IMG/VR virus record: IMGVR_UViG_3300027749_000073 | Location: 25,503 to 89,502 of that record | Source of the DNA: a virus | Length of the DNA: 64,000 nucleotides | Strand: one strand, 5' to 3' | DNA letters: not shown here | Below: the continuation of a report on this DNA, generated by a model with database tools

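What the first reader, a model, noticed from the sequence alone, without database searches (positions are those of the whole stretch)
26809..43172. Candidate new system: Cys-rich virion tip proteins beside a phage-encoded sulfation/glycosylation/carbamoylation cluster
Seen: two fibre-tip proteins with 8-9% Cys are followed, after one small gene, by ~16 genes that sit inside the structural region and carry late TAAATA boxes. They include five sulfotransferase-fold proteins, an APS kinase, GT9-like transferase, NodU carbamoyltransferase, SGNH protein, three 2OG-Fe(II) oxygenases, methyltransferase, ferritin-like di-iron protein, GATase and a GmhB homologue. Established: APS kinase makes PAPS for sulfotransferases; NodU/CmcH enzymes O-carbamoylate hydroxyls; GT9 and GmhB belong to ADP-heptose chemistry; sulfo-, carbamoyl-, methyl- and acyl-transfer together is the logic of Nod-factor glycan decoration. 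Inference: the phage builds a decorated glycan or other modification on its own virion proteins (hydroxylated residues or Cys) or on the host surface, for receptor mimicry, stability or superinfection exclusion. Alternative: DNA hypermodification, since phage NodU-family enzymes can carbamoylate hydroxymethylcytosine, but no base hydroxymethylase is present in this window.
Basis: partly seen in the sequence, partly recalled or inferred. Interest (0 to 1): 0.85.

Follow-up and report, generated by a model that had tools for sequence, protein, structure and literature searches.

The report, continued
Rival explanations
1. Host-surface remodelling. The enzymes act on the infected cell's LPS or another envelope glycan, adding carbamoyl-heptose and sulfate. 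This would block superinfection, stop progeny from sticking to debris, or stabilise the envelope. The position next to fibre genes would then reflect only a permissive insertion site.
For: - The closest solved relatives include the LPS heptosyltransferases WaaC and WaaF.
- Carbamoyl-heptose is an LPS-core feature in Pseudomonas.
- The cassette is annotated as LPS genes in the literature, which proposes a functional link among T4-GCs 304, 305, 307 and 308.
- The ST-like/methyltransferase block occurs away from structural genes in 4 contigs.
- 4 of the 120 listed relatives of the GT are named ADP-heptose:LPS heptosyltransferase by JGI.
Against: - The constant position right after Cys/Gly-rich tip genes, across GT identities of 41-86%, is hard to explain by chance insertion.
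- A perfect late-type box precedes the GT gene, whereas exclusion functions are usually made early (general knowledge, not tested).
- The GT family is dominated by viral sequences and is only distantly related to cellular GT9: the window protein scores only E 0.17 to PF01075.
Confidence: 0.25
2. Small-molecule or metabolic function. The oxygenases, di-iron protein, amidotransferase, methyltransferase and ST-like proteins make or modify a soluble metabolite or sugar nucleotide (an auxiliary metabolic or secondary-metabolite pathway) unrelated to virion or envelope.
For: - Iyer et al. 2010 proposed secondary-metabolite roles for tandem cyanophage dioxygenases (passages).
- Sullivan et al. 2010 proposed that 2OG oxygenases serve 2-oxoglutarate and nitrogen physiology.
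- The methyltransferase-to-st213 block is an independent module.
- The di-iron gene gives the deepest RNA-library contig (128.9, against 17.4 and below for neighbours in run X14; depth is a poor measure of expression).
Against: - This does not explain the fixed GT-carbamoyltransferase pairing with tip genes.
- Window-type oxygenases (40% identity or more, two or more copies) occur in 12 of 16 window-clade loci, always between tip genes and GT, and in 0 of 49 sister-clade loci.
- No core biosynthetic enzyme (NRPS, PKS or terpene) was seen among the ORFs scanned.
Confidence: 0.12
3. DNA hypermodification. The carbamoyltransferase carbamoylates 5-hydroxymethylcytosine, as shown for a metavirome enzyme, and the GT and oxygenases modify bases.
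For: - A phage NodU/TobZ-family enzyme makes 5-carbamoyloxymethylcytosine (Yang et al. 2021, passages).
- 2OG oxygenases and glycosyltransferases take part in other phage DNA modifications (recalled, not tested).
Against: - No PF00303 (thymidylate synthase / dCMP hydroxymethylase) was found in 0 of 5 records: the own 89.5-kb contig, G003 (79% complete), G005, G007 and the complete 372-kb G006. The control search found it in 10 of 14 known genomes.
- In Yang et al. the DNA-acting enzymes co-occur with thymidylate synthase, dCMP deaminase and MazG-like genes within 3 kb. Carbamoyltransferases on unmodified contigs sit next to glycosyltransferases, as here.
- The oxygenases belong to PF13640 and PF13759; no Tet/JBP family was listed.
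Confidence: 0.03
4. Decaying cargo. Part of the cluster, above all the dead HAD and the truncated kinase, is non-functional 'stuffer' DNA in a hyperplastic region.
For: - The HAD nucleophile is lost.
- The kinase lacks about a third of the APS-kinase model.
- GC is 31% in the cluster against 34-40% in the flanks.
- 'Stuffer DNA' was raised by Sullivan et al. 2010.
Against: - All 16 ORFs are intact.
- The dead HAD is kept at 42-57% identity in 17 of 17 window-clade loci with enough downstream DNA.
- Another lake strain keeps 30779-43246 at about 98.7% identity with 5 small gaps.
- RNA-library contigs cover the block.
Confidence: 0.1

Closest known systems
Cyanomyovirus 'LPS gene' cassette (T4-GC 302-308 of P-SSM2; also S-SSM7, S-CAM1/3, P-SSM5; Sullivan et al. 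2010, PMC3037559)
   Same: The same GT9-like gene sits directly before the same carbamoyltransferase, between tail-fibre genes. Identities are 39-43% (GT) and 47-48% (carbamoyltransferase). S-CAM1 has Gly_rich_2 proteins in the position of cysA and cysB.
   Different: - The window has much longer tip proteins (537/538 aa against 278/299 aa).
- It has three oxygenases in place of the adjacent kinase, adenylyltransferase, isomerase, cupin and epimerase genes.
- It has a dead GmhB paralogue.
- It has two extra cassettes of ST-like and other tailoring genes.
- The published account gives no target and raises 'stuffer DNA' as a possibility.
Cyanophage Pam3 tail fibre gp24 with chaperone gp25 (PDB 7ypx/7yfw; PMC9608196)
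   Same: cysA aligns over 178 residues at 26% identity, Z 11.0. It has glycine-rich motifs with variable distal loops. A downstream small gene sits in the chaperone's position.
   Different: - cysA and cysB are twice as long, with about 19 conserved and about 30 variable Cys.
- No disulfide is mentioned for gp24 (0 occurrences of the word).
- The search of the Pam3 paper surfaced no tailoring enzymes; I searched only for gp24, gp25, glycine and disulfide.
Bacterial autotransporter heptosyltransferases TibC/AAH (PDB 4rap, 4rb4)
   Same: GT9-type fold, Z 20.4-20.6, rmsd 3.0-3.1 over 266-268 residues. These are the known case of a GT9-like enzyme putting heptose on an adhesin protein (function recalled from the entry titles and general knowledge).
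   Different: - Only 11-12% identity.
- GT309 (309 aa) aligns from chain residue 97 onward, so it lacks TibC's first ~96 residues (the alignment starts at chain residue 97).
- Iron binding and dodecamer formation were not tested.
- The acceptor is unknown.
Pseudomonas LPS inner core: WaaC/WaaF heptosyltransferases plus putative heptose 7-O-carbamoyltransferase WapO (PA5005) (PMC8005017)
   Same: GT9 transferase, NodU-family carbamoyltransferase and heptose supply occur in one gene neighbourhood. This gives a direct chemical precedent for carbamoyl-heptose.
   Different: That system is a cellular one acting on lipid A-core. Here the genes are viral, sit among fibre genes and lie behind a late-type promoter box.
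Predicted hydroxylase-sulfotransferase systems acting on tail-collar or glycine-rich collagen-like proteins (Iyer, Abhiman, de Souza, Aravind 2010, PMC2938197)
   Same: 2OG-Fe(II) dioxygenases, sulfotransferases, PAPS synthesis and methyltransferases are encoded next to a phage-tail-like or glycine-rich protein proposed as their substrate.
   Different: - Those are bacterial operons with different oxygenase families (beta-hydroxylase, phytanoyl-CoA hydroxylase).
- They are computational predictions only.
- Here a GT and a carbamoyltransferase form the conserved core, and the ST-like genes are optional.
Rhizobial Nod-factor decoration (NodU, NodH with NodPQ, NodS, NodL)
   Same: The same kinds of transfer to a sugar: carbamoyl, sulfate via PAPS, methyl and acyl.
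   Different: - The NodU equivalog model scores 142.5 bits against a cut-off of 1000.
- No NodH, NodS or NodL family match was found.
- No ATP sulfurylase was seen among the ORFs scanned.
Campylobacter jejuni O-methyl phosphoramidate pathway (Cj1415-Cj1418; PMC11800397)
   Same: - The best NCBIfam match of gat182 is gamma-glutamyl-CDP-amidate hydrolase (5.5e-16, against 4e-8 for the next family).
- An APS-kinase-like kinase and a methyltransferase lie beside it.
- In C. jejuni the decorated sugar is a heptose.
   Different: - The score of 59 bits is far below the equivalog cut-off of 250.
- No PPDK_N or NTP_transf_3 protein was found in 0 of 5 fragments. I chose these two Pfam families for Cj1418 and Cj1416 from memory.
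- The kinase is absent from the same block in L109-L112.

Membership tests
CAZy GT9 / Pfam Glyco_transf_9 heptosyltransferases (for 35393-36322) | GT-B fold closest to solved GT9 members | tested here: met
   VIA Z 21.6 (3tov), 20.6 (TibC), 19.7 (WaaF) and 18.4 (WaaC), with 247-275 residues aligned. The next fold class scores 12.4 or less. Foldseek E 1e-7.
CAZy GT9 / Pfam Glyco_transf_9 heptosyltransferases (for 35393-36322) | Sequence match to PF01075 above the gathering score | tested here: not met
   Window protein: E 0.17, 11.6 bits against cut-off 22. TIGR02201: 18 bits against 170. 9 of 35 homologues match at E<=0.01, best 4e-6. The family is therefore a distant, mainly viral sister group.
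CAZy GT9 / Pfam Glyco_transf_9 heptosyltransferases (for 35393-36322) | Catalytic Asp in the N-terminal Gly-Asp loop; ADP-heptose as donor | not testable with these tools
   - The loop reads GGAGR, with G9, G10, G12 and R13 invariant in 35 sequences.
- The donor is inferred only from neighbouring heptose genes in relatives.
NodU/CmcH/TobZ O-carbamoyltransferases (for 36326-38023) | Both Pfam domains (Carbam_trans_N, Carbam_trans_C) above cut-off | tested here: met
   71.9 bits against 24, and 202.5 bits against 27.
NodU/CmcH/TobZ O-carbamoyltransferases (for 36326-38023) | Equivalog of NodU itself | tested here: not met
   NF041651 scores 142.5 bits against a cut-off of 1000.
PAPS-dependent sulfotransferases (for 41428-42069 and paralogue 40805-41431) | Sulfotransferase fold | tested here: met
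   The Atlas's own model gives TM 0.64-0.66 over 166-173 residues to clusters in which 98-100% of members carry Sulfotransfer_3/_1. This compares one predicted model with other predicted models.
PAPS-dependent sulfotransferases (for 41428-42069 and paralogue 40805-41431) | Pfam match; Lys/Arg in the 5'-phosphosulfate-binding loop | tested here: not met
   No Pfam family at E<=5. The invariant loop reads TGPQGxGNH, with Gln where the canonical loop has Lys. The canonical motif itself is recalled.
PAPS-dependent sulfotransferases (for 31687-32796) | Family match by sequence or fold | tested here: inconclusive
   - Atlas features score 0.90-0.91 to Stf0 clusters, in which 14-42% of members carry PF09037.
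- One of 40 homologues hits Sulfotransfer_1 and one of 40 hits Sulfotransfer_3.
- hhalign to the st213 family: probability 65% over 37 columns of the P-loop only.
- No model was available.
PAPS-dependent sulfotransferases (for 30873-31685 and 37998-38594) | Any family or fold evidence | tested here: inconclusive
   No hit in Pfam, PHROGs, NCBIfam or PDB profiles, and none by hhalign.
APS kinase CysC (for 40380-40808) | Full-length match with the DGD motif and C-terminal lid | tested here: not met
   - Pfam is passed (39.8 against 21.1) but covers only positions 4-91 of 152.
- apsK TIGR00455 scores 32.8 against 138.7.
- In the PDB alignment, DGD reads NAD, and the protein ends about 40-60 residues early.
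GmhB heptose-1,7-bisphosphate phosphatase, HAD-IIIA (for 42600-43172) | HAD-IIIA membership | tested here: met
   TIGR01662 scores 55.5 bits against cut-off 44.6. The best named match is GmhB PRK08942, 2e-15.
GmhB heptose-1,7-bisphosphate phosphatase, HAD-IIIA (for 42600-43172) | Catalytic motif I DxD and motif IV GD | tested here: not met
   - The window reads GLEIFGVL and IGSSAAD. Nine clade relatives read TLF, SLF or GLF in motif I.
- 19 of 23 sister-clade sequences read DRDG, and 18 of the 23 read GDK or GDT.
- The GmhB equivalog score is 56.8 against 178.
Pam3 gp24-type fibre (TNF-like + glycine-rich domain; Pfam Gly_rich_2) (for cysA, cysB) | Fold match to the solved fibre and conserved glycine-rich motifs | tested here: met
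   Z 11.0, 178 aligned of 250, 26% identity, standing above unrelated rows at 6 or less. At least 11 conserved Gly-rich segments.
Pam3 gp24-type fibre (TNF-like + glycine-rich domain; Pfam Gly_rich_2) (for cysA, cysB) | PF21722 above cut-off; presence in the virion | tested here: inconclusive
   - cysB scores 20 bits against 24.3; cysA has no hit.
- 5 of the 120 listed relatives carry PF21722 in the precomputed table.
- Virion presence is not testable here.
C. jejuni phosphoramidate pathway (Cj1415-Cj1418) | Equivalog-level match of the hydrolase; presence of glutamine kinase and cytidylyltransferase | tested here: not met
   NF045546 scores 59.2 bits against 250. PF01326 and PF12804 were absent from 5 of 5 incomplete records. 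These two families were chosen from memory.

The most novel reading that the evidence does not exclude
The phage post-translationally builds a carbamoyl-heptose glycan on the hypervariable, Cys-rich receptor-binding tips of its own fibres. The overlapping kinase / ST-fold / ST-fold / gamma-glutamyl-hydrolase operon then decorates that glycan using a 3'-phospho-nucleotide donor. The donor would be either PAPS (sulfation) or, as the best match of the hydrolase hints, a phosphoramidate-type PAPS analogue like that of Campylobacter capsules. In that case the ST-fold proteins, which have Gln in place of the PAPS-binding Lys, would be the missing type of transferase. This would be the first sulfated or phosphoramidated virion glycan in a bacteriophage.
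Probability: 0.12. Interest if true: 0.85.

Novelty: new variant of a known kind. Interest (0 to 1): 0.5.

Why it matters
Tail-fibre tips decide which cells a phage can infect. If cyanophages sugar-coat these tips, it would change how host range, receptor binding and virion stability are read from sequence in one of the most abundant virus groups of lakes and oceans. It would also give a function to genes that have been listed as "LPS genes" or possible "stuffer DNA" since 2005-2010.

The GT9-like family is very large: 2710 relatives in the protein collection and more than 531 loci in IMG/VR. Any function found for it would therefore annotate thousands of genes.

This window adds three things to that picture:
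- optional tailoring cassettes (ST-fold proteins, APS-kinase-like kinase, di-iron protein, gamma-glutamyl hydrolase)
- a conserved dead GmhB paralogue
- evidence that the enzymes stay constant while the tips diversify between strains

If the target is instead the host envelope, the cassette would be a late-expressed surface-remodelling system, which would also be worth knowing.

Tried and rejected
- PDB sequence and profile searches gave nothing usable for GT309, st369, st270, fer232, mt284 and st208/213.
- Megablast of the region and tblastn of cysA against the phage collection found no match. The low-complexity filter may have hidden cysA relatives, so I treat this as no evidence of absence.
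- hhalign among the five ST candidates linked only the P-loops of the st213 and st369 families. I therefore dropped 'five related sulfotransferases'.
- I considered that the window's clade had lost the heptose pathway and rejected the idea. G003 and G005 carry it elsewhere. The own contig is only about 25% of a genome, so its absence there proves nothing.
- I considered a Campylobacter-like phosphoramidate pathway. The two upstream enzymes were not found and the hydrolase scores far below cut-off. I keep it only as the novel case.
- RNA-library contigs gave no cover at 90% likeness or better over cysA, cysB and 43000-46300, apart from short pieces. This may reflect strain divergence and is not evidence of silence. 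Depth was not used to rank genes.
- Small-share runs were not used for habitat claims beyond the labels 'freshwater' or 'lake' on the two runs that hold at least half of the sampled words.
- Complex prediction was not used, because an enzyme-substrate pair is a poor case for it.
- Structure jobs were exhausted after GT309 and cysA. The folds of st198, st270, st369, mt284, fer232 and p251a were therefore not modelled.
- Literature. These searches found no paper proposing fibre glycosylation in cyanophages:
  - 'cyanophage + carbamoyltransferase + heptose': 0 papers
  - 'phage + tail fiber + glycosylation + heptosyltransferase': 1 irrelevant paper
  - 'cyanophage + carbamoyltransferase': 8 papers
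  - 'cyanophage + sulfotransferase': 15 papers

  The library lacks most subscription journals.

Full report
**What the window is.** The 64-kb window is part of an 89.5-kb viral contig. CheckV estimates it at about 25% of a genome. Its carbamoyltransferase and GT9-like genes are most similar to those of T4-like cyanomyoviruses: S-CAM1, S-CAM3, P-SSM2, P-SSM5 and S-SSM7, at 39-48% protein identity. The region of the finding lies among giant fibre genes of 1065-2425 aa upstream and fibre-like genes downstream. The two runs that hold at least half of the sampled words are labelled freshwater metagenomes, and others are labelled lake water. The phage is therefore a lake phage, not a marine one.

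**The observation.** ORFs 26809-28422 and 28424-30040 encode proteins with 50 and 41 Cys (9.3% and 7.6%) and 17-19% Gly. The other 23 proteins examined have 2.3% Cys or less. After a 251-aa gene come 16 ORFs (30873-43256), five of them on the minus strand. GC is 44-46% over the two Cys-rich genes, 31-34% over the enzyme genes and 34-40% in the flanks.

Pfam gives matches above cut-off for:
- three 2OG-Fe(II) oxygenases
- both domains of a NodU/TobZ-type carbamoyltransferase
- an APS_kinase-type P-loop protein
- a class-I amidotransferase/Peptidase_C26 protein

A HAD protein matches only below Pfam's HAD cut-offs (PNK3P is passed); its HAD-IIIA membership rests on NCBIfam. The SGNH, methyltransferase and ferritin-like calls are below cut-off. 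They are consistent with visible GDS/GASND/DHHH and VLDVGCG motifs and with E...ExxH...E...ExxH residues invariant in 5 homologues.

**Promoter boxes.** TAAATA alone is not informative. There are 15 copies on each strand in 26000-44000, against about 22 expected per strand for the 13.3-kb cluster from base composition. The longer ATAAATA occurs 5 times in 26000-44000. All five copies start 10-63 nt upstream of a same-strand start codon, four of them in intergenic DNA: p112, the 172-aa oxygenase (this one lies inside the upstream oxygenase gene), the GT, the di-iron gene and p343. The copy before the GT is a full TATAAATA. That this is the T4 late-promoter consensus is recalled knowledge.

**The tip proteins.** cysA has 139 relatives in the protein collection. 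None is named, and 5 of the 120 listed carry PF21722. An alignment of 41 members shows at least 11 conserved glycine-rich segments separated by variable loops that hold most of the Cys. About 19 Cys are conserved. The AlphaFold model (pLDDT 76.9) gave these matches:

| Search | Match | Score |
|---|---|---|
| Exhaustive VIA | Cyanophage Pam3 tail fibre | Z 11.0, 178 residues, 26% identity |
| Exhaustive VIA | Mycobacteriophage Bxb1 tail-tip chain | Z 9.2 |
| Exhaustive VIA | ALK glycine-rich domain | Z 8.6 |
| Exhaustive VIA | Unrelated rows | Z 6 or less |
| Foldseek PDB | Same top hits | E 0.002 |
| BFVD | 117 matches at E<=1e-3, mostly 'glycine-rich domain' phage proteins, including P-SSM2, S-CAM3 and Syn9 | - |

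In Pam3, this TNF-like plus glycine-rich fibre recognises the host through its variable distal loops. It needs a chaperone encoded just downstream (passages read). cysA and cysB are therefore receptor-binding fibre proteins by fold and synteny. 'Tip' and the chaperone role of p251a are inferences.

**The GT and the carbamoyltransferase.** The 309-aa protein has no Pfam hit of its own (E 0.17). It belongs to phrog_8954 (3e-98) and to a family of 2710 proteins. Nine of 35 diverse homologues hit PF01075. Its model (pLDDT 93.3) matches four GT9 structures at Z 18.4-21.6, against 12.4 or less for other GT-B enzymes. The protein heptosyltransferase TibC ties with the LPS enzymes.

**Co-occurrence across loci.** IMG/VR holds more than 531 loci with a relative of the GT, and I analysed the best 80.
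- A carbamoyltransferase follows within 1.5 kb in 72 of the 76 loci with enough downstream DNA. The exceptions are L056, L075, L087 and L105.
- A fibre or p112 homologue lies upstream in 46 of the 55 loci with at least 8 kb upstream.
- A plus-strand ORF of at least 150 aa with at least 5% Cys (usually 7-13% Cys and 15-28% Gly) lies within 7 kb upstream in 44 of the 55 loci with at least 7 kb upstream.
- The background rate is 2.7% of 404 ORFs elsewhere in the same loci.
- Six of the 11 misses are window-clade loci. In four, inserted genes push the tip genes beyond 7 kb; for L038 and L040 they appear only when the contig is read further upstream.
- The remaining misses are L056, L058, L060, L079 and L105.

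**Two clades and the heptose genes.**

| Feature | Window clade (20 loci, GT identity 70% or more) | Sister clade (60 loci, GT identity 41-49%; includes S-CAM1 and P-SSM2 types) |
|---|---|---|
| Tip proteins | Long cysA/cysB type: 12 of 14, plus 2 beyond the flank | Shorter Cys/Gly-rich proteins |
| Oxygenases | Two or three window-type in 12 of 16 | 0 of 49 |
| Heptose-activation genes beside the GT | 0 of 13 | 20 of 44 with at least 9 kb downstream (kinase, HldE-like nucleotidyltransferase, epimerase, cupin, sometimes GmhA) |
| HAD gene | 17 of 17 | 25 of 44 |

Counts are; S-CAM1 and P-SSM2 gene content is.

The HAD gene next to the carbamoyltransferase has intact DRDG and GD motifs in most of the sister clade (19 and 18 of 23 sequences). 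In the window clade, and in three sister-clade loci (L049, L050, L054), both motifs are destroyed: motif I reads EIF, TLF, SLF or GLF and GD reads GS or GA (FPF or FPW, and SS or SN or SV, in the three sister-clade loci). It is still kept at 42-57% identity.

The pathway is not lost from the clade. G005 carries kinase, nucleotidyltransferase, epimerase, cupin and a live HAD about 10 kb further on, after the last fibre gene. G003 carries kinase, nucleotidyltransferase, epimerase and cupins 85 kb away. The own contig has none but is incomplete.

**The 'sulfation' part.**
- st213 is held in the ESM Atlas with a confident model. That model matches sulfotransferase clusters at TM 0.64-0.66, and its nearest cluster has 9886 viral members.
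- st208 is its paralogue.
- Their invariant loop TGPQGxGNH has Gln where canonical enzymes have Lys (the canonical motif is recalled).
- st369 has 227 cluster representatives. Its support is Atlas feature similarity to Stf0 clusters (0.90-0.91), one of 40 homologues with a Sulfotransfer_1 hit and one of 40 with a Sulfotransfer_3 hit, and P-loop-only similarity to the st213 family.
- st198 (1304 relatives, none of the 120 listed with a Pfam domain) and st270 have no support beyond motifs.
- The kinase matches APS kinases best. It lacks the C-terminal third, and DGD reads NAD.
- No ATP sulfurylase appeared among the ORFs scanned.

**A composite, not one system.** The block methyltransferase-st198-di-iron-amidotransferase-st208-st213 recurs at 31-67% identity in four other viral contigs (L109-L112). 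In L110, the one contig scanned, it lies beside clamp-loader, HNH, PhoH, GH19 lysozyme, DnaJ and ClpB genes. No fibre, GT or carbamoyltransferase lies within 10 kb in any of the four, and the kinase is absent. Among the 80 GT loci it occurs once, in L030, which is the same contig as L025. The st270-st369-SGNH trio occurs in 9 of 14 window-clade loci and in 0 of 41 sister-clade loci. The cluster is therefore made of:
1. a widespread core: tip genes, GT, carbamoyltransferase and HAD
2. clade-specific oxygenases
3. two optional cassettes

**Rival: DNA modification.** The enzyme that makes 5-carbamoyloxymethylcytosine co-occurs within 3 kb with a thymidylate-synthase-type hydroxymethylase, dCMP deaminase and MazG-like genes. 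Carbamoyltransferases on unmodified contigs sat next to glycosyltransferases (passages read). PF00303 is absent from all 5 records searched, including a 79%-complete and a complete one. The control search found it in 10 of 14 reference genomes.

**Field data.** A 20.7-kb DNA contig from another lake sample aligns with 30779-43246 in one piece, with 156 differences and 5 gaps (about 98.7% identity). Over cysA, cysB and p251a only short pieces reach 90%. The tips diversify while the enzymes stay constant, as expected of receptor-binding proteins.

Contigs from metatranscriptome libraries of two studies lie on the enzyme genes:
- 35468-39315, 39591-40934 and 40905-42989 in one run
- 39589-40340 (depth 128.9), with neighbours at 17.4 and below, in a second run of the same study
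- three short pieces at 99-100% identity on the carbamoyltransferase and di-iron genes in another study

The tool warns that DNA can be present in such libraries and that depth is a poor measure of expression. I take this as a weak sign of transcription.

**A lead on chemistry.** The best NCBIfam match of gat182 is gamma-glutamyl-CDP-amidate hydrolase of the Campylobacter O-methyl-phosphoramidate pathway: 5.5e-16, against 4e-8 for the next family, but 59 bits against a cut-off of 250. That pathway also uses a kinase to make a 3'-phospho-nucleotide donor, and it decorates a heptose. That the kinase is APS-kinase-like is recalled. The two upstream enzyme types were not found in five incomplete records (the families were chosen from memory). 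I keep this as the novel case only.

**Comparison with what is known.** The GT, the carbamoyltransferase and the heptose genes are the 'LPS genes' of large cyanomyoviruses. Sullivan et al. 2010 noted that they co-occur, without assigning a function, and raised 'stuffer DNA' as a possibility. Carbamoyl-heptose with a putative carbamoyltransferase is known from Pseudomonas LPS cores. Hydroxylase-sulfotransferase systems acting on tail-collar or glycine-rich proteins were predicted in bacteria in 2010. This scan has already reported the fibre-linked carbamoyl-heptose cassette on at least 16 other genomes, with follow-ups reaching the same reading.

New here:
- the ST-fold, kinase, di-iron and hydrolase cassettes
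- the conserved dead GmhB paralogue
- the modular dissection of the cluster
- the strain comparison

**Verdict.** The finding is a new variant of a known kind. The acceptor of the glycan remains the open question.

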